Assembly (NCBI GenBank): GCA_001662655.1
Contig: KV460215.1
Origin: Pseudogymnoascus verrucosus
Lineage: Eukaryota
Strand: one strand, 5' to 3'
DNA length: 64,000 nucleotides
Shown here: in pieces, positions 18,501 to 37,690 of the stretch
How positions within the stretch are numbered: position 1 is the first letter of the stretch
Layout: every line of letters begins with the position of its first letter
Made by a program: the position numbers and the translations under genes
Notes under the pieces: generated by a model
Told to the model about the DNA's origin: nothing
The model's database searches: none
What the model saw: the letters and a program-made list of their open reading frames with translations, nothing else

Positions 18501-21500
18501 GCCAGTGTGAATGGCGATCCGCTAAGTTTCTCAAGGGGTATGAGGTGCTCAATCATGGCATCTGGAGTTGGCAAGTAGTCTCTAGATGGAAGACGTGGGA
18601 ACTGAGGTCCAACGGCGCCTTTCAGCTCCTGCCGCCAAAACTCCTGCATGGCAGTCTCATCTGTGTCCCGCACAAATTTAACGAAGTCTCGCATTTGTGT
18701 TTTAGTCGTGATGCGCTGGTCTTTCAAGGCGTTGGAGATCTTTTCGAGGATCAATGGCTCTGACCACCCATCGTAGAGTACGTGGTGGACCGTCCAGACC
18801 ATGTATCGCTTGTCATCGCCTGGAGAGCTGATAATAGCATATCGAGCCAAGCTTTCACCGAGATTCATCTTCTCAGCCTTATCATCCTCGAGGTATTGCT
18901 CAAGATTAGTCGGATATTTCCAGGAGATACTTTCATTAAGGATAACTTGCTGGAGCCCAGGCTCTTGAAGTTGGGCGACGCGAGTGCGTAGGATAGGGCT
19001 TGCTTGAATAACTTCCTCCCATGCTTTTCTCCAAGCATCGAGATTTATGTGCGATGGAATACATGCAACTCTCTGAGCTACGTATGCCTTGGTCGATTTG
19101 AGCGAGAAGGTAAACAGTGACTCTTGCGTGGGTGTGCAAGGATATATGTCTTCGACTGGTTCCTGAGTTGACCCACAAGCTTGTGATGCTTCGAGGCAGG
19201 CGCTTTCGGCAGGTGTGGAAATCATAGAAAATGGCGACGATTCTGCCATCGCTTGGACGTTAGAAACGAGGATAACACCAGCCATAGCCGAGAGTGTGGG
19301 GTGGCCAAAAATGCTGGCGACTGTGAGATCGAAATCCTGCGCTCGACAGACAGACACGAGCCTCATTGCTGTTAAGGAGTCGCCACCAAGTGCGAAGAAA
19401 TTATCACTTAGCCCAATGGGTTCTTCGTCAAGTTTCAATATCTCGCTCCAGAAATGCCTCAGACGCTTCTCAGTTTCAGTCATCTCTCGAGAAGCAGTGC
19501 TCGGTGTGTCTTTATCCAAATCCCGGAGATCCACGGTAGCTCCAAACTGACGAAGCCGTTTGCGATCCGTTTTTCCTGAGATTAAAGCTGGAATATAATT
19601 GACTGGTATATATGCGTTTGGCACCATATACCGCGGTAAAACCTTCGCTATTTCCACATCGGCTTCTGAGAGCGTTTCGCGCAGCTCGCTGGGAAGTTGT
19701 GGCGATGTTAAATCGGTATCCTCGCCCTTCATGGCCTTGGAGGTGATAAATGCGACCAAAGTAGGTTGGCCACCACCCGTAGGCACAATCACCTCGGCAA
19801 CAACAGTGGTGTCCGAAGGAAGTCTGGCCCTCAACTGACTTTCGATCTCCCCGAGCTCAACACGTTGTCCACGCAATTTGACCTGGGTATCTTTCCTTCC
19901 AACAAAGACAATGCCTCCCGAACCATCGGGGTCGTATTTTCCGAGATCTCCAGTCTTGTATAGACGCCCCCGACGACCAGCGTAGCCGTTGTGTCCTGCA
20001 ACTAGCCATTTTGGGTCGTTGATGAAGACCTCTGCGGTCTTGTTGGGGTCGTTTAAGTAGCCTTGTCCTACAATAGGACCCTCGACAAGCAACTCTCCTA
20101 CGGCACCGACTGGCATTAGCGTTTCGTGGTCGTCTGGATTGGTGATCCAGATGGCGGCTCCATTGCCTGGCCCGATAGAGATATAGTCCCTGCCTGTAGC
20201 GGCGCTGCTGTTTACGGTGCATCCGATTGTGCATTCACAGGGACCATAACCGATGATAATCCTGGTGACTTCTCCCCAGAGATTAACGTCTCTCGCTGAG
20301 GCAGCCTCTCCACCCAGACCAAGGCCGCTGAGGGATGCTATAACATCATCGTCCAATATGCGGGCCAGAGAAGGGGTTAGGCCGGCGTAATTAACTTGCA
20401 TATTTCTCATCGCTCCATTAATGTCGTTGACTCTGTCCTCATCGGAAGGAATGCAAAGACAGCCGCCGTTGCCCAGAGTTAAAAGCATACTGTCGATGCT
20501 GACATCGAAAGCGTACGACGCAAAATCGAGGACCCTGGAGCTCTCTGTATAGCCAACTGCCTTTGCTCGAGGAATGGCACTGCTTGTATATGTTTCGTGA
20601 GAGATGGTGACTCCTTTCGGAACGCCCGTGCTTCCGGAAGTAAATATTATGTACATTAGTGCAGATGACGGCACAGCTGCTAACTTTGGAAGTTCTTGTG
20701 CATCTGACGAGGCGGGAAATGTGTCCGCTTCCACAATGAGGAGCTTCCCATTCGGCACGATCGATGTTGATATGTCATGCTGGCTGCGCGACGCCACCAT
20801 TATATTTGCACCCACCTGTTCTGCCATATTTTGGAGGCGGGCAAGCGGAAGTGTCGGGTCCATAAGCACGAAGGTTGCTCCAGCTTTCATCACCGCAAGC
20901 ACGGCGACAATTGTCCATTTTGACTTCTCAAAACACACAGGCAGAACATCATGCAATTTAACGCCCATTTCTTGAAGCGAGCCGGCTACGAGCGTAGAAT
21001 ACCGTTCGATTTGGCCATACGTCAAGTCTCCGTCCCATGATGAAATTGCCACTTTTTCTAACAAGCCTTGGGATCGTTCTGCGATCATGTCGTGCATGCA
21101 GAAGTTGCAGGTGGGAGGTAGGAGGTTATTCCAACCCCATATATGATCTATATCACGCGTGGTCGGACGAAGACAGTCTTCCAGGGACGCATCCGGATTC
21201 GAAATGCACATTTTGACAGTGTCAACTAGTGACTCGATATATCGCGTCACGTTGTACTCCGGCATGTTTATGTTTTGCCAGACTGGACGGATCTCGAGAT
21301 TAATACTATTAAGGCGTACCTCAAGGTGAAGGACGCCCTTTTCTCACAGTTAGCCAGGTTACATGGTAACCAAGGTACGATGCCCACTTACTTCATCTTT
21401 AGCTCCTTCGGAAGTTTTGGATAGTGAACTGGTGCTCAAGAGGAGCGACCCAGGATTGGACTTGGGTGTACGCTGACTGGGTTCCGCAGTTGTGATAAAG

Positions 21501-21856
21501 CGAGTGACTACTGCCGTGGTTTCTGTGATATTATTTTGTAATTCCGTCACTACTTCGTCTGTCGACAGACTCCTGGTCTCTAACTCATCTCCAGAAGCAC
21601 CTTCTGGGCTCTTATATGCCCAGTCGAAGCTGACTTGACCGCCCTCGCGAGTCCGAAGGAGCACGATGAGCCATGATAAAAGAAATGTTTCATCTTTCAT
21701 GCTCGTCAGGGAAAGCAACTGGTCAGATACGAGGCCAGCAACCTCGAAATATCTGAAGCCATTGCTATCTGCTGGCTCTCCTTTTGATAGTATGTCGATA
21801 GGACTATTCCTCCCCTCGTTTTCACCTGGTATCTCATCGACGAGTATAGATCCCAT
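15503..21856 (-). CDS. sidD: Extracellular siderophore NRPS (A-T-C-degenerate A-T-C), fusarinine/coprogen-type synthetase
   Basis: A domain YIIFTSGSTGVPKG, LYKTGDL, QVKLRGQRVELGEIE. T domains FFALGGDSL and FFRIGGDSV. C domains HHVLYDGWS and SHAQYDGMS. Truncated second A domain. Exon 1 (21856-21392) joins through intron 21338-21391. Confidence 0.95.
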
Positions 21857-22177
21857 TGTGACGGCAGTCCAGCTTCTCTGGTCCTGGGATCTTGGCGCGG
21901 TTCATATCGGGAGGGACGAGCATCTTTTCAATTCTTAGATCTTTACATGAGCCGAAGCTAAACTGGAGCATTTACATCCTGAGTAGTCAAGCAACAAGGT
22001 TCCATCTTGGCAGCGACATGGAAAGAAGTATATACTTTGATCACAAGTACCTGCCAGGGTCCCGGTACCGATTCCGTGATCCAGGGTCACCCACGCTATC
22101 TTGAATAGGTAGAGTTTACCGAGGCTAGGCTGTCGAGGACTTTGTCTAACGTAAACTGGGTGGTTCTCCGAGAACAA

Positions 22178-22223
22178 ATCTAATCAGATCCGCTAGTGGT
22201 GGGGCTAGAAAATCTAATCAGAT
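22178..22223. promoter_or_regulatory. Paired SreA-type elements in the sidD/sidJ divergent promoter
   Basis: ATCTAATCAGAT at 22178-22189 and 22212-22223, each within the 16-bp direct repeat AAATCTAATCAGATCC. Confidence 0.7.
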
Positions 22224-22533
22224 CCTATGAGTCTTCAGCTGCCCCTCTTCCACATCGGTCGCGTTCCAGAGACTTCATCGGCTGGTGGATTTGTTGTCAG
22301 GCCTAACAATACCTCCTGCAGATGCACAAAGCCGATCTCGGAACTAAGTTCGATTGGTAACACGGCGCGTATTTACCAAGGTAGTGCGGGATGGCACATA
22401 AGCCAATGCTGGGCATGACGTTCCCACAGGTTACTGTCGGGACTTCTCTCGACTTCAGTTCAGTGACCCCCAAAATATTTACATCCAATTTCAGTGACCC
22501 CCAAAATCTGCATATTCCTATCTTCAATCCAAT

Positions 22534-23677
22534 ATGTGTTCCAAATTCTGGCCCAAAGGAGGCCTTCCGGGCATTTTGCACCATTACGTACGTTTTGCAC
22601 TTCATCTCGACTATCCATCACTGTAGAGGTAACTAACAAAATGCAAAACAGACCGAGACTCTAGTAACCTTCGAATATACAGCAAGCGTCACCCATAAGC
22701 CTCACAGCATTGTCTTCCTTGGAGGTCTGGGAGATGGGCTCGCAACTACATCCTACATGTCCGATATCGTACGCGCGTTACAACCAACGGACTGGTCGCT
22801 CTTCACCTTAAATCTCACATCCTCATACCAATCATGGGGTCTCGGACATCTCGACAGAGACACGGATGAGGTCGCCGAATGCGTAAAATATATCAAAGAC
22901 TACAAGACCAGCAAATTTGGCGATGGAAAAATCGTCCTCATGGGCCATTCATCCGGAAGTCAATTTGTTATGCATTACTTGTATCGCCCAAATCCTCACA
23001 CAGGCATCGCACCCTTTGATCCCTCGCTGGAGCATGTCAAACGTCTGGAAATCGACGGAGCGATCATGCAAGCACCGGTGTCGGACAGGGAAGCAATCCT
23101 CCTGTGCAGAGAAATGGGGATCGGAGGCAAGACGCCGAGCGAGGTCGAAGCAGCATACCAGACGCTAGAAGCAATGGCCAAAAAAGTGAACCGCGAAGAA
23201 ATCTGCGATACGCTGTTACCTTTATCTCTGACCAGTCAGATTGGCTACCTACCCAATGTTCCAATAAGCAGCCGAAGGTTTTTAAGTCTCAACAGTCCGG
23301 AAAGCCCGCTGGCACCGGAGGAGGATGACCTTTTCAGTTCGGATATCGGTGATGAACAGTTAGCGAAGACCTTTGGAATGATCAAGGAGCGCGGGCTGTT
23401 AAATCACAAGCTGATGGTCTTATACTCGGGGGCAGACCAAGCTGTTCCGGCTTACGTTGATAAAGAGGGCTTATTGGTGAGGTGGATGAATGCCGTTAAC
23501 CATAATGGACGAGACCAAATATGGGACCGAGACCACAGCGCAGTGATACCGGGTGCTTCTCATGCGTTGAGTAACGATGACCAAGCTGAGCCGCGGAAAG
23601 ATCTTGTTAGGAGAGTATTGGGGTATTTGTTGACGGCTGAGAAAGTGCCAACAAAGCCTACGAAATCCAATGATTAA
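22534..23677 (+). CDS. sidJ: Fusarinine C esterase SidJ-like (DUF1749 alpha/beta hydrolase)
   Basis: Exon 1 MCSKFWPKGGLPGILHHY, intron 22588-22651, then FLGGLGDGL, nucleophile elbow GHSSGSQ, MQAPVSDRE, DDLFSSD, GASH. Confidence 0.88.
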
Positions 23678-23789
23678 TAGAATTTGTTTGTACTTTATTT
23701 AAATCCGCAATTTATATAATTCCTGGATAACACCTCCGCGTTTTATGATATCTATTGTGTCCAGATACCTCTCTTGAGCCCAGCGAACT

Positions 23790-25613
23790 TTATGAGACGA
23801 CAAGTTCAAATACCGCATTCTCTTTCAAGGAAAGAATGAAATCAATGGTATATACAACCTCACTTTTCCCTTGATGGTTGATATGCTCAGTTGTACCAAT
23901 CTGGGGATCTTGAGAGATTTTGGTCGAAAGTGTGCAACTGGTAGCACCTTCCTCAATTATCACAGCCCCATTTTCTATGCGTGGTCGCACGAACGATACA
24001 AACCTCTCAGCAACATCCATTGGCCGAGAAACTTTGATCTCATCCAGAAGACTCAAGCGCCCTGTCTTATTATCGAATGAGAGGCGTCGCACCAGCGACG
24101 TCAACCCGCTCACGGCGTAAGTAGGGGCAATATCCATTGAAATTGATCCATTCTGATCAAAAATGACATTTCGAGCGCAATATTCTCTCCCATCACGTTG
24201 GCTGTGTCCATCGACAATGGGAACATTGTGGCTTTTAGAAGAGGTGCAAAAGGTGTCGTAGCGATCGGGCCCAAAGTATGACTTCGTGTACTCTCCCTTG
24301 CCAATATCACATAGGAGCATTACACCATGTCTTGAAAATAGAAAGCTTCCGACATCATTGTGGTTGTGTTCCTCATCGTTATGGCCTGCTTTCGCCGCAA
24401 ATCCAGTGCCATCATTGCCGCTGCACAACAGCCACTGAGCCTTTGGGTATACCACGCAGGGTTGAGGCAGTGCCTGCTTCGACACAAGTGTATCTGTAGT
24501 CCATAGCAGATCACTTAGAGCAGGAGCAAAGTTGTAACAATGCGAGTGCATTACATCCATGGCGCTCTCTAACGGTGGGGCCATCACTTCTTCGAAATGC
24601 TCTGCCAAAAAACATGTGACGCCTGGCCGATATTTGTCGTTTGCTTCAACATCCGAGAATGTGAGCGTTGCAGCTCCTGGGAAGAAGCAATTTTGCTGAA
24701 ATAAAGCGATAGGAGCAAATCTTTTATCGGAGAGCAGGTCAAGCTTCCCAGCTGTTCGTCTGCCGAGAAGTTCTGCAAACACCACAAAAAAGCTTACTCC
24801 ATACGTCCAGTAATTTAGGCCCTCAGTGCAGGCACCATCTTCACTGAATCCGGCAATATATCTCTCCATTACAGGCAGCAGATTTCGGAGGATAGCAGCG
24901 AGATCCAGATCGTTTCCAACGAGAAGCATGGCGGCACTGCCAATGCTACCAGCGCAAACCGCACACCAGTTACTATCCAACACTTCCCAATGCTGGATAG
25001 TCGATTTATCCATGTAGCTGTCGATGACCCGACGCATGACTTCTGATTGGGCTCGCTCGACAATAAAAGGATTGAGCTTATCACCGAGCAGAGCACATAT
25101 TTCTGCAAGTGCTAAGCCAGTCTCGCAGGCGAAAAGGTCGAGGTTCAATGCAGCATCCCGGCGTTTGCTGGTGTTGGAATAACCAACATTGGTTTCAATA
25201 GTTAGGCTGGACCCGTGCATATGTGAAGGCAAACTCCACGTGTAGTCGTCACATAGGGCCCAAATACACTCCTCGAGCGTTCCAATGTCTTCCGGGTCGT
25301 TCCATAACCACGCGCTAAGAGCAGAGACCAGCAGGGTCTTGCGCCGCGAAAAGTATGGAGCTTCGTATCCGAGACGCTCGCCTACGGTATCGAACAGCTT
25401 GAACATCCGGAATGGAAGCACAGGGATGTCCTTGCCTCGAAGCTCTTCCGCAGCACTCTGGAGCTTGTCGCGAGAAGTTTGTAGAAGCGGATTGTTCAAC
25501 ACTCGATCAATGGTTTCCCGTTTTCCCGCCCATCGAAGCAGGTCATATCCAAATGCACCGTCGTCGGTTCCAGAAGCCAAATCTCTGCATAGTTTACCAA
25601 TGTCGACGTTCAT
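23790..25613 (-). CDS. Heparinase II/III-like family protein (putative oligosaccharide/polysaccharide lyase), intronless, no signal peptide
   Basis: 607-aa single ORF. Motifs DLFACETG, NWCAVC, DGACTEGLNYWTYG, FSD, AKAGHNDEEHNHNDVGSF, LLCDIGKGEYTKSYFG, SHNVPIVDG match the heparinase II/III-like architecture. Confidence 0.8.
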   Translation of the reverse strand: MNVDIGKLCRDLASGTDDGAFGYDLLRWAGKRETIDRVLNNPLLQTSRDKLQSAAEELRGKDIPVLPFRMFKLFDTVGERLGYEAPYFSRRKTLLVSALSAWLWNDPEDIGTLEECIWALCDDYTWSLPSHMHGSSLTIETNVGYSNTSKRRDAALNLDLFACETGLALAEICALLGDKLNPFIVERAQSEVMRRVIDSYMDKSTIQHWEVLDSNWCAVCAGSIGSAAMLLVGNDLDLAAILRNLLPVMERYIAGFSEDGACTEGLNYWTYGVSFFVVFAELLGRRTAGKLDLLSDKRFAPIALFQQNCFFPGAATLTFSDVEANDKYRPGVTCFLAEHFEEVMAPPLESAMDVMHSHCYNFAPALSDLLWTTDTLVSKQALPQPCVVYPKAQWLLCSGNDGTGFAAKAGHNDEEHNHNDVGSFLFSRHGVMLLCDIGKGEYTKSYFGPDRYDTFCTSSKSHNVPIVDGHSQRDGREYCARNVIFDQNGSISMDIAPTYAVSGLTSLVRRLSFDNKTGRLSLLDEIKVSRPMDVAERFVSFVRPRIENGAVIIEEGATSCTLSTKISQDPQIGTTEHINHQGKSEVVYTIDFILSLKENAVFELVVS

Positions 25614-26210
25614 TGTGCTCTTTCCCGTGATGTGTTGGTGCTCTCGCTATGACCCTTCTTGTTGGGAATATCCTGTGTGGAATCAGCGGTTTACTGGTAG
25701 AAATAGTTGTATTGGGCGTTTCCCCAATTTGTGGGCTGAATGAATTACAGAAAAGACTAGTTTAACGGCCTCGATTGTGTGGGCGGCGATTTTTGAGATG
25801 TAAGAAAGAACAGTTGTGGAAGTATGAAGATAAGGGTCGACAGTGAGAGGGGAAGCTAGAGTTTTTGAACTGGGGTTGTTCCGTACACACGGCAAGGCCA
25901 ACACGCCAAATACACTCGAGTACTTAACCCCTACACAAACACAGGCATTGGCAGTATACTAGTGCTACCTAGTGTCATTAAAGCTCGTGTGTTTACTTGG
26001 GAGCTTAGATGCTATTGCGTATGTTTTCTGCCTAACATTGCTGATTCTAAGTCTAGATCGTGGAAGTCTAGATGCGCCCGCTGTTAGAAGGTATCATACA
26101 GGAGTATTCATCATACAGGGATATATATACAATTATGTAAACCCATCGTTGTTGATCTGTACGGAGACATAGAGAGTGGTTTATTTATATACCTCTAGGA
26201 ATTGGGTAAG

Positions 26211-27535
26211 CTATGGGCCATGGAACTCATAGCCTGGAAATCTACGACTGTAACTGTAATAAGTGTCTTCATCTTGAGTGTGGTGGTGAAACCCGGACGA
26301 CATAAATTCGTAAACGTTTTCAGCACCGTTCTCCCAAAGCTGCGTCTCAAGGCGCTCGACTTCTTCCAATGTCATTTTTTCTTCTTCCAACGTTATGTCT
26401 TCTTCTTGCACCGTCACGCCGTCGACTCTTCTACTACACCTGTCCTGTTCTATAATAAAATCCGGGAGCTCGTGCAGGACGGGAAAGTCAGCCTTGTGTT
26501 CCACTTTCAAGTTACCGATAGGCCCTTCCTGGCAATGCCAGCGCTGGCGAATTCGTCGCTCGATAGTGAATAGTGACGACGAACTCTCTTGGAAGTAGTG
26601 AGTATCCGGTTTCGCATAATGTGGATGCAACTTCGGAAGATTAAGCGCGACATCCATGTGCGGCATCGTTTCCTCTTCAGAGTGAGCCTGCGTGCGTGCT
26701 AATAGAGCAGCGATCATTGGACGCATAGCTACGCGCTCGTTGACGAATGACCACGAAGGTCTATCGTCGTGGTCTAACCAGATGTGGAGGCTGCGAAGTT
26801 GCGGAAGTTGGCAGATGGCCGGCCAGAGATGCTCCCACGCAGCGCATCCTACTGATACTGCTCTCGTGTGAGGACCAACTACCAAAACCAAGTCTTCATC
26901 TTCGTCTTTCTGTAGTACCTCGTAGAAGGCTAGTGGGAGTCGGAAGGCGATATTAAGTTTACGAATTCTGGGACTTATGTAGTCGCGGAGGTTCCAGGCG
27001 CAATTTGAGTCACTAATTAGCTCATTTGGCTTCAATAGCAACATTTCCAAGGTGTCTATATCCGTGACGTTGATCGCTGTTGTCTTAACAACAACGTTGC
27101 AGGCATCGAGAAACCTATCAGTGGGAAACGACTCTAAGCAAGGGGCGAGTTTAAGTGAGGAATAAAAGAAATTGTTTACATTTTCTTGCACACAAAAAAA
27201 AGGTCGTACGTATGATAACGGCGATGCTCGCGCAAGTCCGTCCTTTCTCTGTACGCAGCCTCCTCGCATTCCCAATGCACCCCCCATGTAGACCGGAGAC
27301 GGCGGGCCCACCCAGGATCATCCCGCCTCCAGTGAGTCGTAGTTACACGCTCGCGGCCATCATGACGGTCATCACCCAAGTTCGGTTGAAGGCATGCCGA
27401 CAGCTGAATTCTGCCCTGCCACAAAAAAGCGTGAGTCTGGCCGTGGAAGATCTGAGCGTATATTGCTTGACGAATCTCGACAGGCATCGACAGCAGTTTG
27501 CTCTCATGCTGCGAGTACACGTGTTGATCAAACAT
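26211..27535 (-). CDS. Hypothetical fungal protein with F-box-like N-terminal motif (DUF7730-like), 2 exons
   Basis: MFDQHVYSQHESKLLSMPVEIRQAIY. Intron at about 27116-27178 (AAAAT|gtaaac...tgatag|GTTT) joins the two ORFs. Contains WEHLWPAICQLPQLRSLHIWLDH. Confidence 0.65.
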
Positions 27536-27851
27536 ATTAGTTGAGGGGAAGATACAAAGTAGATGTTGTTGCTTTGCAAGGTGGGATATTTGGACAGCAA
27601 TTACAATTATCCCACGCGTTTCCCCGCACCACAATATGGACCCCTGTGCGTTAATTGTGGACCCCTGGAGCTTATTCCCCGCACTTCACTCGGCATCAGG
27701 CGACAGCTGCCACCGTCGGCTGAAAGAGCTCGGGCATCGGGCGAGCTTCACCGGGATATTTAGAAGGGCATCCCCACACATTTCAGACGCCTTCACAGTC
27801 ACGCAAACCCAACACCGGAGGAATGCGTAGCAATACGGACCGGTGACTGAG

Positions 27852-30800
27852 ATGGAGTCAGAGCCTCCTATCTCGAGCCAAGTGGACGACCGACCTGCCT
27901 GTGGAGCATGTCGCAAGCGTAAGCTTCGGTGCTCACGAGAAACGCCATTATGCAATCATTGCCGAAGACAAGGTAAGCTTGGTATCCCACAAGTCCAGTC
28001 CACAGCCAAGGAATCTTGGGTGTATTTGTATTCACAGGTTGGGTATCTAGGGTCGGTCTGCGCATACGACGGTGACCGCGATAAACCTGGTCTCAAAACT
28101 GGAGCAGTTGAAGCCTTGAGGAGACGAGTTGGTAAGCGAGCCATGAAGAGTTCGTCTCTGAAAATTACAAATTTAACAGTACAGGAATTAGACGCCCTTG
28201 AGGCTGCCGTTTTTGAGCAAGGCGCGGCCTCGGGTGAAGGCGAGCGGCCAGCCTATTATAGCAACAGAGATACGGCGTCAGCAATTCGTGATGGGCTGGA
28301 ATTGCTCTTTGAGCAACTGCAAGCTCAACCACGGCGGAAAAGGCGTTGGTCACAGACGTCTGAGGCTGCCGCTGCTCGGCGTGAACATGGAGATGTGCAG
28401 CAACTGCAACTGCAACTGCAACAACCACAGGCACAAACCGAGATCCCGTCTTTGCCGTCTAATAAACGGCGAAGAGCGGATACAGGATTGATTGAGCCAG
28501 ATGATTTGGATGATCTATCTGACAGTTTACCACCACCAGAGGTTCTCGAGGCAGTCATTGACCTATATTTTTTGTTAGTTCAGCCATGGATTCCAGTTTT
28601 CCATGAGAAGAGATTTCGCCGACGGCTGAAAGACCCTAACAACAAATATCGTTTGGAGGTGGTTCTGCACGCCATGTTGGTGGCGATGCTCAAGCATGTT
28701 GATCGCAGACAGATCACAGTAGATCTTGGCGATATCGAGAGCATCTGTGAACGGTCCCGTAAAATTGTAATTTTAACCGCGATGGATGAGTTGCATGTTG
28801 AGAATCTCCAGGCACTGGTCATTATATGCTTCGAAGATGTGCGTTCTCTCTCCCCTTCTATTTTAAGGCGGGCTAGTGAATTGACTTCTCCATTTTATAC
28901 AGATTGGGTCCGGAAGAGTCTCTCGTGCATGGCCACTTGTCGGCTCTTTAACAAGGACTGTAGAATATCTTCAACTAAGTGTTGAGTCCGAGGACCATGA
29001 TAATGGTCCAATGCTCCAGCCGCGGCCTTCGTTGCCCCCATCAGAAAACTGGGTAGAGGAAGAAGAACGGCGAAGGGTATTTTGGACAATTTTCAACTTG
29101 GATAGGTAAGTCCTCCGCCGTCATAAGAGTGCTTGCGAGAAGTAATTCTAACAGCACGGGTGGCAGGTTTTGTTCTGTGACCACTGGGTTTGTTTGACAT
29201 CCCCGATAAATTTCGGGCTTATGGACTAATTTTTGTAGTTGGAATACTAGCCTAACATCAAACGATGTCCATCGACGCCTACCGGCTGATGGGGGCCTGT
29301 GGCACAATGAAGAGGCAGTCACAACCCCCTTCTTTGGCATCTGGGACAAATCCGAAGGGAAAATTGGAAATCTCATCGCCTTTCTCCCAAGAGATTACAA
29401 TGCCGCTGAACCATCTCGAGATCGATATCGCCAAGGTGCAGAAAATATTCGCGAACCCGACGCATCAGAACAAAAGGTTGACTTGTCGACTGTGGGCGCA
29501 TTCGCGTATCGGGTTGAAGCGACCGAGTCGCTGAGTCGGGTTACGACGTTTTTCCTACAGCAGAAAATAAACTATCGCAATCGACAAGAAATGGGCAGCT
29601 GGCTCATGAGATTTAAGGAGTTGGATTTACGGTTGGTTAGGTATGCATGTTCTTTTTGCTCCTACGAGTGCTCCTCGCCACCCTCACCATCCCCGCTAAC
29701 CAATGTCTACAGCTGGAAAATGTTCCTACCACAGAAATGGAAAGATTCGAATATTTCACGCCAACCAACAGTGGTAACTATGGACCCGAATTTGACTCTT
29801 GCGCATATCACCCACAACACATCAATGATTTTGTTACATCAACGGATCGCCTACCCGCCTCTCGAGTGGCTTGAAGTTGTCAAGCTTCCAACACTATCTA
29901 GTGCGGAGACTTGTGAAGCTGCAGCTTCTGAGACGGCTAATATCACTCAAAAATATATGGACAACTCTCCTGCTCAGGCTGTTGTAGATAACCAGTTTGC
30001 ATTTTGCGTCTTTGTCAGTGCACGTGTTCTTTTAGGTTTGTTTCTAATGTCCTCGTGCGACCAGGTGTTGCATTCAGTTTACGTACTGATATAATATCAT
30101 AGTTCACTGGCGCTACTACAAAACGGACCTCTCTAAAGATTACTGGACTCTAATGAAGTTTCTCGATATCATGTCAGGACGCTGGTCAGGCCAAAATCGC
30201 GCACAACCCGCAAGCCAACAAAATTCTACTGCTAAGTACTTCAACCAGCTAAACGATATATACAACAAGTGTATAATCGATCGGTCGTTTAAGTTAGATG
30301 TTCTTGGGTACTCAAATGAGATTGAATGGACAGGAAAAAGAGTTGTTTCTCGAGATAGCCAGAATGGGCACGGTGTGCGGGAAGGAGATGGTAGAGACGC
30401 CAGCGAAGTAGAGACTGCCCGTATCGACGCGGCTATGAGTACGAATGGCGATCATCAAAGTGCACAGGTTCGCCATGTGCCAGGGATGTCTCCGTTTCAG
30501 CGGCGACCAAGCGACGCCCCAGCTTATATGGGCGTTTCGTCACTGAATGACTCCTCGTCGGATATCCCACAACAACCTGTGCATAGTTTACACTCGGAGC
30601 CCTCCTCGGCGTATCATCCCTCTCAATTTATGGACGCCCAGGGGCCAGGTATACTTAATTCTAGCGACGGAAACTCAAACAATGCAGCAAATAATCCGAT
30701 GATGTTAAACTCGCCTTCTGCGCGGATGGGCTACAACACAGGAAGCCCGGATGAATTAACCGCGGTTACGTCGATTCTGCTAGACCAGCAGTACTCGGAA

Positions 30801-30863
30801 ATGGACAGGATTATTAGTTTGAACAACGCGTATTTTGCGTCAGATGTAGCATACATCCAGTAG
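27852..30863 (+). CDS. Zn2Cys6 transcription factor with fungal-specific TF (Fungal_trans) middle domain, multi-exon
   Basis: [22 protein letters not shown]...(intron)...[44 protein letters not shown]. Several GT-AG introns. Confidence 0.88.
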
Positions 30864-31232
30864 AACGGCTTTTCAATTTGTTTCTTACTTGATGGCTTCT
30901 TTTATTAAAATACATGCATTTAAGTGTGAAATAATTCCAGAATTACGATTATTTAAACTATGAAATGACTCAAAAGAGCCTGGTGGTTCCATTAAAGAGG
31001 ACTATATATACGTACATGTATGGTATTCTATTTTAAACAACTGTATGTAAGGCAAAGTAGCTATTCCAAGGGAACCGGCAAGGATTCCGAGCTCTCCAAA
31101 CTCCTCCGAGACTTAGTCCGATAGACCCCGCCACGTAAGGAAAATAACAAACAGAGCTCCCCATATATAATTATCGCCACGGAGTAAAAACAGTGCAGAA
31201 TAACAACACATTAAAAAGCGTATACTATCAAG

Positions 31233-33571
31233 ATGCCACCACTTCCCGGATTCTCAGACAATCCGTTGAAGGACAGGGACGATATCATTCAAGCTGCAAT
31301 CGCATTCATCAAGCCACTACACCAACACATTTCTCCAAGCGGAGCATTCGTCCGTCTGCCTACCTCAACCGGTGCTCACTTTGACGAGGGCGCAGCACGC
31401 CTCGAAGGCTATGCGCGCCCACTCTGGGTGGTTTCAACCCTGCTACATTCAGTGCAGTCTGATCAGGCCCACGCCGAGACAATCAGGTCACTAGCTCAGC
31501 CATGGATTAACGGTATATGTGCAGGAACAAACCCAGATCACCCCGAATACTGGGGTTCCATTTATAATGGCGATCAACGCATGGTTGAGGCCGAAGTTAT
31601 TGCCTGCGCATTGCTTTTCGCGCCAAAAGAGTTCTTCCATTCGCTTGAGGAAACGGCTCAAGCTAACATCGTATCATGGCTGCGTGGTATGAATGGAAAG
31701 GACATGCCATTGAATAACTGGAGATGGTTTCGTGTCTTCTCCAACCTGGCATTGGTACTCGTTGCGGGTATTCCTCATGCGGAAGTGAAAGAGGAGATGG
31801 AGCGAGATCTAGCCGTCGTCGATTCATTTTATATTAGCCAAGGCTGGTCGGGAGATGGGCCGTGGAAGACACCTGAGCAAGAAGCAGAAGAGGAGAGAGA
31901 AAGCGCCGAACATCGGCGGCGTGATAGGATTGGATGCGGGCGCCAAGCTGACTACTATTCTGGTAGCTTTGCTATCCAATTCAGTCAATTGCTGTATTCT
32001 AAGTTTGCGGTCAGCTTAGATCCTGAACGAACAGCGACGTACCAGCAGCGGGCTCGAGACTACGGAAGTTCCTTCTGGAGATACTTTGACGCGAGTGGTA
32101 AGTTGTTACTAGCCATCAACAGTTGAGTCGTAAATACAATTTATAACAATGAATACTAACAATGAGTACGCAGGCGCCGCTATTCCGTTTGGACGCTCTC
32201 TGACATATCGTTTTGCATGTGGCGGCTTCTTTGCTGCGCTTGCAGTCGCTGAAGTTCCAGATATGCCCACTCCTGTATCGTCACCGGGCGAAGTCAAGGG
32301 ATTTCTACTTCGACACCTTCGGTGGTGGGCCCAGCACTCCGATGATATCTTCTATCCCGACGGGACTATGAATATTGGATATATGTACCCGTAAGTTGAA
32401 ACAAATAACCCACCAGTTTCCCGCTAATACAAGTACTAGAAACATGTATATGGCTGAAGACTACAACTCTCCTCAATCAGTCTATTGGAGTCTTAAGTCC
32501 ATGGTTGTAATATGTTTGGGAAAAGACCACGAATTCTGGTCTACCCCAGAAGCTCCGTATCCCGTCTTTTCTTCCGTTAATAAGGCCGACTTGGAGAGCT
32601 CTACCCTAGAAGACATTGCCCCCGTTGAGGTGATCCCCCCACCAAATCAAATTCTATGCAATCAGCCACATGGTGGCCACCACTTCCTTCTGTCACCGGG
32701 TCAATTTGTTGCTTGGCCTATGAAAGCAAACCAGGCGAAATACTCCAAATTTGCCTACTCGTCTGCCTTCAGTTTTAGTGTTCCTACGGGTCCGCTAATC
32801 CAACAGATTGCACCCGACAGTATGTTGGCCCTTAGCCGGGACGGCGCATCTACGTGGGCTGTGAAATGGAAATGCTCACCAGTTCAGTTTTCGACTACGA
32901 AATTACAGTTAGAGTCATCGTCGATTGCAGAGACGGTACCACTGGCGCGTGTAGAATGGCGTCCCTGGGAAGACGGGCAAGTGAGTGTCACAACGACACT
33001 TATCCCGCCAACCAGACGCTGGCCTGATTGGCATGTCCGTATCCATCGGATACGACTCGGTCGCCCGGAGAAGCTCGACAGTTTACATCTGCTAGAAGGC
33101 GGGTTTGCCATCTCCCGGGTTCCAGCCAGCAGCAGCAAGAGGAACCTTCCACTACTATCAGATGATGATTCTTCCCTATTGAATATCAAAACTGGGGGGG
33201 AAGGGGTCTACTCGTCGAGTACCAGCGCTCTCGTCTTATCCGCGGCTGGTGCAAGCGGTATTCGCGGCATTGCTAGCCGTTCTGGTGACACGCCTATTAC
33301 GACTGAGCATGATGCAATGAAGCCAGACTCTAACACCAATTTGACCGCTCAAAGAACATTTATTCCCATTACAACTCACGAGATCTTCGACTTTGACTCG
33401 ACGTCCGAGATTGAGTTGGTGACAAGCGTATTCGCTATCTCGACGCCAAATGATACACACACGAATGGCAGGACGCTTCGGGAGAGATACTTGGACATTC
33501 CTAGGATTCATATTCAGGGCCGACAAACTTCATTAGAGTCAACTCAAGATAGCATTATCATTGACGGATAG
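31233..33571 (+). CDS. DUF2264 family protein (probable GH154-related glycosidase), intracellular, 3 exons
   Basis: [77 protein letters not shown]. Introns at about 32098-32173 and 32390-32440. The GH154 link is from memory of the family and needs an HMM check. Confidence 0.82.
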
Positions 33572-33842
33572 GAGTGATAGATATATGGAAATGTAGCTTT
33601 AGGTCACTTGTAATCAAATCTTAAAACATGATTTCGAACGGATTTCTCACATGAATTTATACTTGTTTCAGCCAACTCACATTTCGCGCTACCTAACCGT
33701 GAGTGCCTTCTTCGCATCCAGTTTATTTCTACCATCTGCGCACTGAATTTATGTATGTATTGAGACTCTAAATATATATAAATGAGTAAGGTATCAGTTC
33801 GAATTCCCTGTCTGGCTGTACATTTCCAACACAGCGTATGCA

Positions 33843-35522
33843 TTATAAGAGGCCCATCCTCAAAAGCTGATTGCCAAATTCTAGCAGATAATAATCAGCA
33901 TATACGAGACCGTGATTGCTGTAACGATCATGATCATTGGAATTGTGATTGGCTGTGGCATTCTTCAAAATAGCGTCAAATCGTTGGCCTGCCACGGCAT
34001 CTTCGACGCGGATCTTCTCTGGGCCACCCGTGTGGTCCGCAAATCTAGCCTTTTCAGTCGACAGAGAGAATTCCAGGGTGTCAGTGACAATTCTTATTGC
34101 TGCGGAACGGTATCTCTCTGCCAGAATTTCGTCGCCAAGTTCCACCATAGACTGCGACAGAAGCAACATGCCATTGGCGGCAATGACGCCCGCTGAAGAA
34201 TCTCGGAGAGGGTTGGATTCGTCTTCGATTGGAGCATCGAAATCCCATAACGGCACATAACGACCAATAGTTGGTGATCCGGATCCAGCGGTTGGCCGCT
34301 CGACACAGGCTGGTGACGTCTCCAATCTCCACAGGAAATACTCTGCCATGCCGCACGCCGTGGAGAGAAACTCTCTATCCCTGGACCAATTATACGTCTG
34401 CGCGTATCCGAAAATACCCCATGCCTGACCACGGGCCCAAGTTGACTCTGCACTATAACCTTGGGCTGTGCGACGCTCTTTTACTTCTCCAGTTTGTGCG
34501 TCAAAGTTGATGACGTGGTAATGAGAGTAGAGCATGCCCTTATATCGCGTATCCGTTCGGCCTGGTGGTGTTTCTGGCCTAAGATTTGATTTTATGAGTG
34601 TCTTCGCGTGCGTGATGGCGATTTCAGCGTAAACTGGGTCTGAAAAATGCGACGAGGCGTAGAACAGCAAATCAAGATTCATCATACTGTCTATAATGAC
34701 CAAAAAGTCTTGTGTCATACTGGTGATTGAGACATCTGCTTGACTCAACACATCCCAACTGCGGATTGCGCTCACAGCAGGGCTATACCGGCTGGCAAGG
34801 CTTTTTGCCGCAGTTAAAACAGCCTGCAGACTGTTCTCGTTACTCGTTAGCTCCCAATCCTTTCTTACTGATGGCTGAATGATAAACCCCATATCGTGGG
34901 TGTCTATTCGCGACTTCATTGCCTCCACAGGTCCAGTCCAGTCCTTGCATAGAGAAATAAGTTCCTGGCGAAGTAATGAACTCGAAAAGTGAAGGCTGTC
35001 CTTTTCGTGACCGAGATACGGGAACACTCGTGGATACTTGACTGCGCGCTCTCGCAATAGATATAGGATACCAGGAAAGAAGCCACACGTCCAAAAATCT
35101 GCATCTCGCAGAAAATATTTCCCTGCATCCTCGCCTCTCTGTGGAACAAACTCGGGATACACTGTGGGCGGATTCTAATGAAAATAGTTAGAAAATTAAC
35201 CAAAATTACATCTTGGCTGGACTTGTACATTATTTCCCAGTGCTTCTATTGCCACTCTTAGTGTCTTAGCAAGGATATTCTCTGAGAATATCTCTAGAAG
35301 TTTTTCCATATTATAGGACTCATTCGGAGACTGTGATGTGACCATTTCCCCAGACTGGTAGTCTGATACCGATGTATCACTTGGAGGGGTTTTCAGCGCA
35401 CTGTGGTCCGACTCGTCTTTTGATTCTCCGGAACTGATCGGAGAGGCCATATCGAGCGCTTCCTGATTGAGCACAAGAGAATCATGTGGTTGTATCGAAG
35501 TTGGAATATCCGAAGTGGACAT
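33843..35522 (-). CDS. GH88 unsaturated glucuronyl hydrolase, intracellular, 2 exons
   Basis: DFWTCGFFPG, DTHDMGF, VIIDSMMNLDLL, TAQGYSAESTWARGQAW, WDFDAP, RDSSAG, YADYYLLE. Intron 35175-35228. Confidence 0.92.
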
Positions 35523-35781
35523 GATTTGTGATTTGCTGAGTTAGGCTGTTCGTCAGAGCAGTAAGGTAACTTCACAGTTGAAAATTCTCAATGTGAATAA
35601 AAGCAACGAGTAGATGGTTAGTCTCTTTTTACGCCCTCCTACATTTATGGTGCCACCTTTCATTACCTTCAACGGCCGATATAATTCTCTAGTCTGTGAT
35701 TGGGAATCGAACTTTGAGCCAGTCAGTGCGAGTCCTACATCGGAAAAAATGTCCCCGGGCACATTTGCCCGACGCACGTTG

Positions 35782-35985
35782 CCCCGCATCCGTCCCATCC
35801 CAATTTGGCGATAGCTCCGCGCGCAAGATACGCCGACCTTTTTCCCACGCGATTGACAATTGAACACCAAAGCTTTTGCGTGACAGCTCCGACGATGCCC
35901 ATAATTAATTCGCGGAGTATAGAGGTCCACGCGCCAGATTAGCCTTAACCCCACATCCCAGCCCTCGGTTTGTCGAATTGCGGGG
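35782..35985. promoter_or_regulatory. Cluster of CreA-type (SYGGRG) carbon-catabolite repression sites in the GH88/transporter divergent promoter
   Basis: CCCCGC 35782, CTCCGC 35815, GCGGAG 35912, CCCCAC 35949 and GCGGGG 35980: five sites in about 200 bp. Confidence 0.45.
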
Positions 35986-36085
35986 AATGCTTATAAGAAA
36001 GCCTCATGAGACCGTCCCCAATGATAAATATTTTCTCCCATACAATTCCGCTGAGCCAAGAGGACTGCTACATCCAAGAGGAGCC

Positions 36086-37690
36086 ATGGCAGACTTCGCA
36101 CACTCCGACAACTTCGAGGGACTGCAACTTAAAGATGTAATCCCACAAGGGCGCAAGCCATGGTACAAGGACACGACACTCATCAAGCTCAATACTCTTA
36201 TGTTATGTGCCCTCATCACCCAAATCGCCTCCGGGTATGACAGCAGTATGCTCAATGGGATGCAATCCCTTCCTGAGTGGAAGGCTTACTTCGGCAAACC
36301 AACTGGAACCCGGCTTGGTGCCATGACGTTTGGCCCTACCGGCGGCACTTTGATTTCCGTTTTGGTTTCATCACAGCTTTGCGAGCGATTTGGTCGACGA
36401 TACCCAATTTGTGGAGGTTCTCTAATTATCATATTTGGTTCGATTTTACAGACTACTGCCGTGAACTACAGCATGTTCGTTGCTTCGCGGTTCTTTGTCG
36501 GATTTGGTCTCGGAATTGTGGCTACGGCTGCCCCACCGCTTCTGAGTGAGGTCGCATATCCTACACATCGCGGCAAACTGGTCTCGTTCTACCTTGTCAC
36601 CTGGCCACTGGGATCACTTATTGCGGCATGGGTCACATTCGGGACACGCACGATGACCGGTTCTTCGTGGACTTGGAGGCTCCCAAGCGTTCTTCAATGC
36701 TTTTTCTCACTCGTCCAGGCGGTGTTGAGTCTCTTTGCGCCAGAGTCCCCTCGATGGCTCATCTACAACAATCGCAGCCAGGAAGCATTGGATATCTTGA
36801 CCAAATATCATGCAGATGGAGACTCAAACTCACGACTGGTACGATTTGAAATGGCTGAGATCACTGCGACATTAGAAGTTGAAAAGGTGCAAAAGATGTC
36901 TCGCTGGGCCGAATGGATTTCCACCAAGGGCAATCGACACCGCCTCTTTCTTGCCCTCTTTATCCCCGCCATGCTACAATGGTCCGGCAACGGTCTGACC
37001 TCGTACTACCTTGCCAAGGTACTCACAACGATCAACATCACCGACTCCAAAACTCAGCTTATCATCAACGCCTGCCTTTCCGTGTGGAGTTTTCTTACAG
37101 CCTGTTTTTTTGCCACTCTCGTCGATCGAATGGGCCGCCGGCGTCTCTTTCTCTACGGTATGGGCGGCATGGGGATATCCTATATCATCTGGACTATCTG
37201 CTCCGCTACCTACGAGCAAAGGGGTTTCAAAGGCAAGGGGTTTGCGGCTGCGGTGTTGCTCATGATCTTCGTCTTTAGTGCCTGCTACCATATGTGCTCG
37301 CCAGTGGCGCCGACGTACATCATGGAAGTTGTACCGTACTCTCTTCGCGCGAAGGCATCCATGTTGTATCAACTAACCGGCAATCTTGCTGGTATCTACA
37401 ACAGCTTCGCCAACCCAGTTGCAATGGATGCGATCTCATGGAAGTACTATATCGTCTGGTGCGTCGTCATTGGTATAAACTTCACTTTGATTTTCTTCTT
37501 TTTCCCAGAAACGAAAGGGTTGGGTCTCGAAGAAGTAGCAGAAATTTTCGACGGACCTGATGCTCTATTTGGTATGAATGCGATGAGAGAAATGGGTCTT
37601 GATGTTAATGCGGACAAGTCTATGGCAATTGGGGATGATCAAGGGTCTATGACAGGAAAGAAGGAAGTTTCACATACTGAGAAGGCTTGA
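36086..37690 (+). CDS. Sugar porter (MFS), lactose/cellodextrin-permease-like, intronless
   Basis: GYDSSMLNGMQ, ERFGRR, EVAYPTHRG, WRLPS, PESPRWL, QWSGN, DRMGRR, FPETKG. Confidence 0.9.
   Translation: MADFAHSDNFEGLQLKDVIPQGRKPWYKDTTLIKLNTLMLCALITQIASGYDSSMLNGMQSLPEWKAYFGKPTGTRLGAMTFGPTGGTLISVLVSSQLCERFGRRYPICGGSLIIIFGSILQTTAVNYSMFVASRFFVGFGLGIVATAAPPLLSEVAYPTHRGKLVSFYLVTWPLGSLIAAWVTFGTRTMTGSSWTWRLPSVLQCFFSLVQAVLSLFAPESPRWLIYNNRSQEALDILTKYHADGDSNSRLVRFEMAEITATLEVEKVQKMSRWAEWISTKGNRHRLFLALFIPAMLQWSGNGLTSYYLAKVLTTINITDSKTQLIINACLSVWSFLTACFFATLVDRMGRRRLFLYGMGGMGISYIIWTICSATYEQRGFKGKGFAAAVLLMIFVFSACYHMCSPVAPTYIMEVVPYSLRAKASMLYQLTGNLAGIYNSFANPVAMDAISWKYYIVWCVVIGINFTLIFFFFPETKGLGLEEVAEIFDGPDALFGMNAMREMGLDVNADKSMAIGDDQGSMTGKKEVSHTEKA

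What the first reader, a model, noticed from the sequence alone, without database searches (positions are those of the whole stretch)
23790..25613. Intronless, bacterial-looking heparinase II/III-like gene: candidate horizontal acquisition
Seen: a 607-aa single-exon gene with no signal peptide or transmembrane segment, among mostly intron-bearing neighbours. Its stop codon is only about 112 bp from the sidJ stop. Motifs such as AKAGHNDEEHNHNDVGSF and DIGKGEYTKSYFGPDRY read like cytoplasmic bacterial heparinase II/III-family proteins. Inference: a bacterial gene recruited to the edge of the GH88/DUF2264 cluster, supplying the lyase step.
Basis: inference. Interest (0 to 1): 0.7.

Follow-up and report, generated by a model that had tools for sequence, protein, structure and literature searches.

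The report
Bacterial sugar-chain lyase in soil fungi
A soil fungus carries an intact, bacterium-derived enzyme gene for cutting uronic-acid sugar chains, placed beside older fungal genes for the next breakdown steps, which rebuilds in a fungus a gene set known from bacterial operons.

Summary
In detail: 23790-25613 (-) is one 607-codon frame with no signal or membrane segment, 112 bp from the sidJ stop, in a Pseudogymnoascus-type genome. It is not an assembly chimera. It is not PL12, 15, 17 or 21 but polysaccharide lyase family 33, subfamily 2: the best sequence and fold matches are PL33, and the Asn/Tyr/His catalytic set, the Tyr/Phe clamp and the PL33_2 valine are kept. Named fungal homologues are only Pseudogymnoascus, Oidiodendron maius and Umbelopsis. 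They form one clade (100/99) that groups with Spirochaetota (96/98) inside bacterial diversity, while the cluster's GH88 is widespread in ascomycetes. Transfer from bacteria is well supported. Donor (inside or beside spirochaetes) and route into two fungal phyla stay open. The link to GH88 is kept in six named Pseudogymnoascus assemblies and in Oidiodendron. Bacterial relatives often sit beside GH88 and DUF2264. The genome's three other GH88+DUF2264 clusters each have a lyase of a different family nearby. Likely role: cytoplasmic cleavage of imported glucuronate oligosaccharides, feeding GH88, with the DUF2264 dehydratase priming saturated ends. Substrate and expression are unproven.

The parts
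23790..25613 (-). PL33_2-type polysaccharide lyase gene, 607 aa, single frame (P0001); alpha-toroid plus beta-sheet domain
24969..24971 (-). codon of N215, matching BtPL33 N238 (carboxylate stabiliser)
   Evidence: hand mapping on the alignment; role from PMC11848413
24810..24812 (-). codon of Y268, matching BtPL33 Y291 (acid/base)
24366..24368 (-). codon of H416, matching BtPL33 H444 (activates the tyrosine)
22534..23677 (+). sidJ-like DUF1749 hydrolase, last gene of the siderophore cluster, convergent with the lyase; intron 22588-22651.
26211..27682 (-). DUF7730 gene between lyase and regulator (approximate ends, exons not resolved); probably a passenger
   Evidence: one diverged contig in run X3 joins 25624 to 27399
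27852..30863 (+). Zn2Cys6 transcription factor, intron-bearing; candidate cluster regulator
   Evidence: PF00172; GT-AG joints in run X15
31233..33571 (+). DUF2264 / former GH154 protein, 737 aa in three exons; predicted glucuronate 4,5-dehydratase
   Evidence: PMC12269599
33843..35522 (-). GH88 unsaturated glucuronyl hydrolase, 541 aa in two exons, no hydrophobic leader
35987..37690 (+). MFS sugar porter (start at 35987 or 36086), divergent from GH88; candidate importer

Best explanation
The gene encodes a cytoplasmic PL33 subfamily 2 polysaccharide lyase that fungi took from a bacterium of, or close to, the Spirochaetota. In Leotiomycetes it was joined to an older fungal cluster (regulator, DUF2264 dehydratase, GH88, sugar porter). 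Likely working: the porter imports glucuronate-containing oligosaccharides. The lyase cuts them by beta-elimination at 4-linked glucuronate: N215 steadies the carboxylate, H416 activates Y268, and Y268 takes the C5 proton and protonates the leaving sugar, with Y442/F447 closing over the chain. GH88 removes the unsaturated uronate that the lyase leaves, and the DUF2264 protein dehydrates saturated glucuronate ends so that GH88 can remove those too. Shown here: frame, fold, residues, phylogeny, conserved linkage. Taken from characterised relatives: the chemistry. Inferred: cytoplasmic location, joint action and substrate. My guess for the substrate is microbial acidic exopolysaccharide such as gellan-like or glucuronan chains (45%), animal glycosaminoglycan fragments (35%), or other glucuronate glycans (20%).
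For: Family: best solved relatives are BT4410 and BcellWH2_04512 (E 6e-39 to 5e-35, against 4e-17 for PL35). Foldseek TM 0.75-0.80 and Z 34-35, ahead of PL35 (27-30) and PL15/21/17/12 (19-25), on a model of pLDDT 90. Ten mapped BtPL33 residues match (R80, H131, L160, N215, W216, V219, Y268, H416, Y442, F447). They are kept in 31 of 31 fungal-clade sequences (R80 30 of 31) and in 83 of 83 bacterial homologues. Val at the W242 site is the published PL33_2 mark. Origin: after the fungal clade the best hits are Treponema/Spirochaetia at 43-48%. In a 441-row FastTree the 57 fungal-clade rows are one clade (100) inside a 100-row clade (99) whose other named rows are all Spirochaetota. IQ-TREE on 41 rows gives 100/99 and 96/98; the mixture model on 27 rows gives 100/98 and 95/91. 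Placing the fungi with the outgroup is rejected (p-AU 0.001). Contrast: the cluster's GH88 has named homologues in Aspergillus, Penicillium, Talaromyces, Colletotrichum, Fusarium and others at 54-72%. Linkage: lyase and GH88 locus tags are 4 apart on equal-length contigs in 6 of 7 named Pseudogymnoascus assemblies where both were seen (the seventh: 3 apart, different contigs), and accessions are 4 apart on one scaffold in O. maius. Bacterial loci: GH88 within 8 kb in 42 of 80, DUF2264 in 29 of 80, both in 25 of 80; ABC importers adjoin the two spirochaete-clade loci read in full. Own genome: the three other GH88+DUF2264 clusters lie beside a PcRGLX-type lyase (C23), an Alginate_lyase2 protein (C1) and a PF14099 protein (C12). 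DUF2264 keeps 6 of 6 alignable BcGDH active-site residues. Not a chimera: one 64.7-kb contig spans 20000-38500, and a diverged contig crosses the sidJ junction.
Against: No activity, localisation or expression of this gene in this organism was shown. The lyase upstream region shares no motif with the DUF2264 and GH88 upstream regions beyond chance. An unrelated DUF7730 gene separates it from the regulator. Two of five PL33_2 proteins tested in PMC11848413 were active on the panel, so the residues do not guarantee a known substrate. No secreted enzyme that would make the oligosaccharides was identified, and it is unknown whether a sugar porter can import chains long enough for an endo-lyase. 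34 of 80 bacterial loci have neither GH88 nor DUF2264 nearby. 'Fungi sister to, not inside, the sampled spirochaetes' is not rejected (p-AU 0.39). The AU groups were named after a first tree was seen, and 5 of the 14 'spirochaete' rows are unnamed. Only 120 of 610 and 120 of 482 hits were listed, and several members of the fungal clade are unnamed, so the fungal range is a lower bound. Two other loci (C32 GH88, C6 DUF2264) showed no lyase in the stretch scanned. One relative's copy (run X16) carries a frame-shifting 76-nt skip.
Confidence: 0.75

Rival explanations
1. Same enzyme, two separate bacterium-to-fungus transfers. Leotiomycetes and Umbelopsis each took the gene from one poorly sampled bacterial lineage, and the unnamed P0021/P0022 group may be that lineage. 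This concerns the route, not the function.
For: Umbelopsis is only 44-45% identical to the Leotiomycete proteins, no more than Treponema proteins are (46-48%). An unsampled donor would also make the fungal rows look like one clade.
Against: Among sampled sequences, splitting the fungal clade is rejected (p-AU 0.016 and 0.021). No named bacterium falls inside the clade in 441 rows.
Confidence: 0.35
2. Old vertical inheritance: one transfer before Mucoromycota and Dikarya split, or an ancestral eukaryotic gene, followed by loss almost everywhere.
For: One fungal clade whose deepest split runs between the two phyla. Composition is fully fungal.
Against: No named Eurotiomycete, Sordariomycete, Dothideomycete, basidiomycete or Mucorales hit ranks above bacterial hits at 35-48%, whereas GH88 of the same cluster is found across such groups. 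It needs very many losses, and an ancestral eukaryotic origin is at odds with p-AU 0.001.
Confidence: 0.08
3. The gene belongs with the siderophore cluster, or is a passenger whose place beside the GH88 cluster is an accident.
For: Its stop is 112 bp from the sidJ stop, and the adjacency is kept in a diverged relative. No shared promoter motif with the sugar genes.
Against: No ATCWGATAA site upstream (0, against 1 and 3 upstream of the two siderophore transporters; motif recalled). No sidJ homologue near any of 80 bacterial loci. Linkage to GH88 is kept as far as O. maius and mirrors the bacterial operons.
Confidence: 0.1
4. Bacterial contamination or an assembly chimera.
For: Intronless and bacterial-looking.
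Against: One contig of another run spans the region with 22 substitutions (flagged as a possible source), and a diverged contig of a third study crosses the junction. Orthologues at 81-97% occur in at least 15 named Pseudogymnoascus records, flanked by intron-bearing genes.
Confidence: 0.01
5. The protein keeps the PL33 fold and residues but works as a C5-epimerase or dehydratase-like enzyme, or acts outside the cell after release without a signal peptide.
For: The same Tyr/His apparatus is shared with dermatan sulfate epimerase (Z 23; PMC11848413). An endo-lyase is more useful where the polymer is.
Against: It is much closer to PL33 lyases (Z 35). Only 2 of 83 bacterial homologues have a hydrophobic leader, and the two read in full sit between an importer and GH88, which needs a lyase product.
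Confidence: 0.08

Closest known systems
PL33 subfamily 2 (ObPL33-gellan OPIT5_09595, ObPL33-CS OPIT5_11155; PMC11848413, PMC6442616)
   Same: Val at the -1 subsite, invariant R/H/N/Y/H and Y/F clamp. A Breznakiella homolactica protein (P0431, 47% identical) lies in the same clade, and that species supplies the one spirochaete entry of the published PL33_2 list (accession identity not checked).
   Different: Fungal nuclear gene. The published datasets list no Ascomycota or Mucoromycota and only two Saprolegnia eukaryotes. Substrate unknown.
PL33 subfamily 1 BT4410 / BcellWH2_04512 (PDB 8R75, 8R6Z, 8R70-8R73), hyaluronan lyases
   Same: Best sequence and fold match over the whole length; catalytic residues align.
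   Different: About 21% structural identity; Val instead of W242.
Bacteroides caccae PUL25 (PL35 + GH88 + BcGDH dehydratase; PMC12269599)
   Same: Same logic of lyase, unsaturated uronyl hydrolase and GH154-type dehydratase; the window's DUF2264 matches BcGDH.
   Different: The lyase is PL33 rather than PL35. Import is by an MFS porter and control by a Zn2Cys6 factor. No hexosaminidase or sulfatase in this cluster.
Bacillota and Spirochaetota operons: ABC importer, PL33-like lyase, GH88, often DUF2264
   Same: Gene content of the catabolic core.
   Different: Not a transferred operon: the fungal GH88 and DUF2264 carry introns, are about 25-37% identical to the bacterial ones with no special closeness to spirochaetes, and GH88 is widespread in ascomycetes.
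'PL12 lyase' noted in Umbelopsis genomes as a possible bacterial transfer (PMC7928374)
   Same: A heparinase II/III-type bacterial lyase in Umbelopsis, with GH88 also noted, and transfer suggested.
   Different: No tree, no link to Leotiomycetes, another family label in the passages seen; whether it is the same gene was not checked.
PL12, PL15, PL17, PL21 (heparinase III, exo-alginate/heparin lyases, heparinase II)
   Same: Alpha-toroid plus beta-sheet fold, PF07940 domain.
   Different: Clearly weaker matches (Z 19-25, 10-15% identity); no sequence hit at E <= 1.

Membership tests
PL33 | Sequence similarity closest to characterised PL33 enzymes | tested here: met
   phmmer E 6e-39 to 5e-35 over residues 32-524; next family 4e-17
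PL33 | Two-domain (alpha/alpha)6 toroid + beta-sheet fold | tested here: met
   model pLDDT 90; TM 0.75-0.80; Z 35, 572 residues aligned, rmsd 3.3
PL33 | Invariant catalytic N238, Y291, H444 | tested here: met
   N215, Y268, H416 by hand mapping; 31 of 31 and 83 of 83 homologues
PL33 | +1 subsite R103, H154, L174, W239 and tunnel pair Y470/F475 | tested here: met
   R80, H131, L160, W216, Y442, F447
PL33 | Conserved Zn site | tested here: inconclusive
   The loop region aligns and H418, D436, H462 are conserved. The ligands were not named in the text read; their assignment is recalled by analogy with heparinase II, and geometry was not checked.
PL33 | Lyase activity on a glucuronate glycan | not testable with these tools
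   needs purified enzyme
PL33 subfamily 2 | Val in place of W242 at the -1 subsite | tested here: met
   V219 (for the rule)
PL33 subfamily 2 | Covariant His to Tyr change above that Val | tested here: inconclusive
   Y271 aligns with the only His in that stretch (H294 numbering) and is Tyr in 83 of 83; the paper numbers the site 301, which I could not reconcile
PL33 subfamily 2 | Groups with listed PL33_2 members / CAZy assignment | tested here: inconclusive
   Groups with a Breznakiella homolactica protein; that species is listed in PL33_2, but accession identity was not checked and no CAZy or dbCAN profile is on hand
Horizontally acquired bacterial gene | Nested within bacterial diversity | tested here: met
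   outgroup placement rejected at p-AU 0.001
Horizontally acquired bacterial gene | Patchy range in the recipient kingdom | tested here: met
   named fungi only Pseudogymnoascus, O. maius, Umbelopsis among listed hits against broad GH88; listings are capped and some clade members unnamed
Horizontally acquired bacterial gene | Physically linked to host genes, not contamination | tested here: met
Horizontally acquired bacterial gene | Donor lineage identified as a spirochaete | tested here: inconclusive
   fungi + spirochaete clade 96/98, but sister versus nested is unresolved (p-AU 0.39)
PL12 / PL15 / PL17 / PL21 | Closest sequence and fold relative | tested here: not met
   all rank well below PL33 and PL35
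Glucuronate dehydratase (former GH154), for the DUF2264 neighbour | BcGDH active-site residues | tested here: met
   E74, R78, N176, N177, W178, F181 align; Y229, R285, Y289, Y354 lie outside the aligned stretch and were not tested

The most novel reading that the evidence does not exclude
One transfer from a spirochaete-like bacterium into a fungus, then a second transfer between fungal phyla (Umbelopsis and cold-soil or peat Leotiomycetes). In the Leotiomycetes the gene rebuilt the bacterial lyase + GH88 + dehydratase operon out of unrelated fungal parts. More broadly, fungal GH88/DUF2264/porter/regulator clusters would be PUL-like modules with an exchangeable lyase that sets the substrate (four different lyase families in this one genome), and the PL33 version would let these fungi eat bacterial exopolysaccharide inside the cell.
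Probability: 0.3. Interest if true: 0.75.

Novelty: new member of a known kind. Interest (0 to 1): 0.56.

Why it matters
Fungal GH88 and DUF2264 genes are common, but my searches found no paper on their clusters. This locus gives them a testable upstream enzyme, and the four paralogous clusters with four lyase families give a built-in comparison of substrates. It would add fungi to PL33, whose published member lists hold no true fungi, and offer a cytoplasmic, probably soluble PL33_2 enzyme for a subfamily with few known substrates. The shared clade between Mucoromycota and Leotiomycetes, with spirochaete-like nearest relatives, is an unusual route for gene flow. Transfer of carbohydrate enzymes from bacteria to fungi is itself well known (recalled), which caps the score.

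Tried and rejected
Composition as a sign of transfer: none. Shared promoter words among lyase, DUF2264 and GH88/porter upstream regions: 52 six-mers against 45.8 shuffled, 6 seven-mers against 4.8, no eight-mer. Expression: no listed holder is on record as RNA. RNA-like run X15 covers sidJ, the regulator, DUF2264, GH88 and the porter but not the lyase, and run X16 gives no cover from about 28000 to 38500; contigs cannot show absence, so neither was used as evidence. The metagenome scan with the fungal alignment returned no locus above 49% identity, so no fungal neighbourhood was read directly. P0021/P0022 could not be assigned to an organism. ESM Atlas only repeated PF07940 clusters. The 50% representative library has no names: 5268 hits at E <= 0.001, one high-scoring fungal-type representative among the 150 listed. 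Plasmid search gave only distant matches (24-31% among the 12 of 145 records listed, all under 60%; 110 of 145 Rhizobium). No PL8 or KduI match in the own genome, which does not show absence. Pfam scan of 65 bacterial neighbour proteins gave mixed clues (GH2, GH42, a heparinase III-like lyase, a lacto-N-biose phosphorylase-family protein, a fucosidase) and did not fix a substrate. Earlier scan notes: nothing. Literature searches found no report of this gene, of fungal PL33 or of this cluster, apart from the Umbelopsis remark; most subscription papers and the CAZy pages are outside the library. No complex prediction was run, as no binding is claimed.
Full report
Observation. The minus-strand frame 23790-25613 translates to 607 aa without a stop and holds both quoted motifs. 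There is no hydrophobic leader or membrane span by hydropathy, and the hydrophobic stretches are core helices in the model. Neighbours sidJ, DUF2264 and GH88 give whole frames through GT-AG introns, but sidF and the sugar porter read as single frames too, so lack of introns is weak evidence alone. Closest named proteins are Pseudogymnoascus at 81-97%, which places the window in that genus. It is the only PF07940 match in the genome.

Not an artefact. In one search one 64.7-kb contig of run X2 covers 20000-38500 with 22 substitutions and one 26-letter insertion; the tool flags X2 as a possible source, so it is not fully independent. A contig about 85% alike from run X3, another study, crosses from sidJ into the lyase. 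Orthologues stand in at least 15 named Pseudogymnoascus records. All runs laid were contigs, not long reads.

Family. The best solved relatives are the PL33 lyases BT4410 and BcellWH2_04512 (E 6e-39 to 5e-35), then PL35 (4e-17 and weaker). A model from 28 aligned sequences (pLDDT 90.3) matches them best by Foldseek (TM 0.75-0.80) and VIA-align (Z 34-35, against 27-30 for PL35 and 19-25 for PL15, 21, 17 and 12). I read parts 1-4 of 6 of PMC11848413 and mapped its residues by hand on the alignment, whose 8R6Z numbering reproduces the paper's: R103=R80, H154=H131, L174=L160, N238=N215, W239=W216, W242=V219, Y291=Y268, H444=H416, Y470=Y442, F475=F447. The paper gives Val at the W242 site as the PL33_2 mark. 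These residues hold in 31 of 31 fungal-clade proteins (R80 in 30) and 83 of 83 bacterial homologues. Searches of its supplementary lists found no Ascomycota, Mucoromycota, Pseudogymnoascus, Oidiodendron or Umbelopsis, two Saprolegnia entries, and one PL33_2 spirochaete, Breznakiella homolactica. A protein of that species (P0431, 47% identical) sits in our clade; its accession was not checked. Characterised PL33_2 enzymes cut gellan or chondroitin sulfate (passages of PMC6442616), and three of five tested were inactive on the panel.

Origin. Among the 120 listed of 610 hits and 120 of 482 from a second search seeded with the deepest branches, named fungi are Pseudogymnoascus and Umbelopsis. Cluster look-ups add Oidiodendron maius. 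These span Thelebolales, Myxotrichaceae and Mucoromycota. Next come Treponema, Spirochaetia and Sphaerochaetaceae at 43-48%. FastTree on 441 rows (proteins under 500 aa dropped) gives one clade of 57 fungal and unnamed rows (100) inside a 100-row clade (99) whose other named rows are all Spirochaetota, itself inside mainly Bacillota diversity (a 135-row tree agreed). IQ-TREE on 41 chosen rows gives 100/99 for the fungal clade and 96/98 for fungi plus spirochaetes. A mixture model on 27 rows gives 100/98 and 95/91, the latter also taking in a Rectinemataceae row and one unnamed row. AU tests reject fungi with the outgroup (p 0.001), Umbelopsis group with spirochaetes alone (0.016), Leotiomycetes with spirochaetes alone (0.021) and fungi with the nearest non-spirochaete clade, mostly unnamed rows (0.026). 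They do not reject spirochaete monophyly with fungi as sister (0.39). The groups were named after the first tree, and 5 of 14 'spirochaete' rows are unnamed. So bacterial origin is firm, a spirochaete-like donor is likely, and the route is open. P0021/P0022, sister to Umbelopsis, are unnamed; if they are bacteria, two transfers from one unsampled lineage fit equally well. Base and codon use are fully fungal, as expected of an old event.

Cluster. Beyond a DUF7730 gene lie a Zn2Cys6 factor, a DUF2264 gene, GH88 and a sugar porter. GH88 has named homologues across Eurotiomycetes and Sordariomycetes at 54-72% and only about 25-34% identity to bacterial GH88s, with no pull towards spirochaetes. 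The catabolic core was therefore not transferred as one operon. Lyase and GH88 are 4 locus tags apart on equal-length contigs in 6 of 7 named Pseudogymnoascus assemblies with both seen (the seventh: 3 apart, on different contigs), and 4 accessions apart on one scaffold in O. maius (KIM96765.1, KIM96761.1). In bacteria, GH88 lies within 8 kb of the lyase in 42 of 80 genome loci, DUF2264 in 29 and both in 25; 34 have neither, 14 of them short. In metagenome loci of 15 kb or more, 16 of 28 have GH88 and 9 have both. Two spirochaete-clade loci read in full show ABC importer, lyase and GH88. Passages and one section of PMC12269599 show that GH154 proteins dehydrate terminal glucuronate so that GH88 can act. 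The window's DUF2264 protein matches those structures (E 3e-7 to 7e-6) and keeps six of six alignable active-site residues.

The own genome adds a comparison. It has DUF2264 at five loci and GH88 at six. The three other places with both have, within about 10 kb, a PcRGLX-type lyase (C23), an Alginate_lyase2 protein (C1) and a secreted-looking PF14099 protein (C12). A GH88-only locus (C63) has a PF14099 match with an in-frame stop. C32 and C6 showed no lyase among the frames scanned (64 of 97 frames were scanned). CAZy names for these domains (PL26, PL7) are recalled. No chance background was computed, but four of four paired clusters with a lyase, each of a different family, fits a lyase slot filled here by the bacterial gene.

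Mechanism. Shown: frame, fold, residues, tree, linkage. From relatives: Tyr/His beta-elimination at glucuronate, GH88 release of the unsaturated uronate, dehydratase priming. Inferred: import by the porter, cytoplasmic action (2 of 83 bacterial homologues have a hydrophobic leader), joint control. Against: no shared promoter word, no expression data for this organism, no identified secreted first enzyme, and a frame-shifting 76-nt skip in a relative's copy. The siderophore rival has only adjacency for it.

Novelty. Nine literature searches found no account of this gene, of fungal PL33 or of the cluster. Passages of PMC7928374 note a 'PL12' lyase and GH88 in Umbelopsis and suggest transfer from bacteria, possibly the same gene. 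Passages of PMC13260240 describe lyase + GH88 + GH154 loci in haloarchaea. Passages of PMC13009009 did not bear on it. CAZy, subscription papers and preprint supplements were not visible and may already list fungal PL33. Verdict: a real, old, bacterium-derived PL33_2 lyase; a new member of a known family, with an interesting cluster setting and an unresolved cross-phylum history.

Noticed in passing
G000 C23:33.7-43.5 kb, C1:2-17 kb, C12:455-469 kb, C63:97-106 kb (L172-L182): Paralogous GH88/DUF2264/transporter/regulator clusters, each beside a different lyase-type domain (PcRGLX, Alginate_lyase2, PF14099); C63 has GH88 without DUF2264 and a PF14099 frame with a stop.
   Followed up: partly
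window 24863-24938, run X16: A relative's RNA-like contig (about 93% alike) skips 76 nt of the lyase frame and shows further gaps; a one-base shift would read GT..AG, so a deletion and a cryptic splice both fit. That copy looks disrupted. Another X16 contig runs on into unlike sequence at 27869.
   Followed up: partly
window 25624-27399, run X3: A diverged contig joins the lyase start region to 27399, as if most of the DUF7730 gene were absent and the lyase lay head to head with the regulator; low-likeness joints are unreliable.
   Followed up: no
named records: No record named Pseudogymnoascus destructans appeared for the lyase or for this GH88, though many other Pseudogymnoascus did; listings are capped, so loss is only a lead.
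   Followed up: no
window 33843-35522 (GH88): GH88 is as alike between Pseudogymnoascus and O. maius (83%) as within Pseudogymnoascus (84%), and its next named hits are Aspergillus and Penicillium (about 70%), not other Leotiomycetes; the whole cluster may have moved between fungi.
   Followed up: partly
L167 (G000 C37:293479-294123): PF14099 match with 21 stops (15 TAG, 6 TAA): a decayed gene, possibly by repeat-induced point mutation.
   Followed up: no
L172:4950-6500 (G000 C12, about 452-453.5 kb): Open frame with a delta-endotoxin N-terminal domain and a jacalin domain beside the C12 cluster.
   Followed up: no
L163 (G000 C1:4478-5515): This DUF2264 paralogue is one open frame of 656 codons and scores far higher on the Pfam model (390 bits) than the intron-split paralogues; it may be a separate, more bacterial-like acquisition.
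   Followed up: no
window 3525-23677: Siderophore-type cluster (ABC transporter, acyltransferase, enoyl-CoA hydratase, MFS transporter, NRPS, DUF1749 hydrolase) abutting the sugar cluster; ATCWGATAA sites upstream of the two transporters.
   Followed up: partly
PMC11848413 Dataset S2: Two Saprolegnia (oomycete) proteins are listed in PL33_2 but were not among my listed hits; probably a separate transfer into eukaryotes.
   Followed up: no
L185:4212-5273 (G000 C32): Fic-domain frame near the C32 GH88 locus.
   Followed up: no
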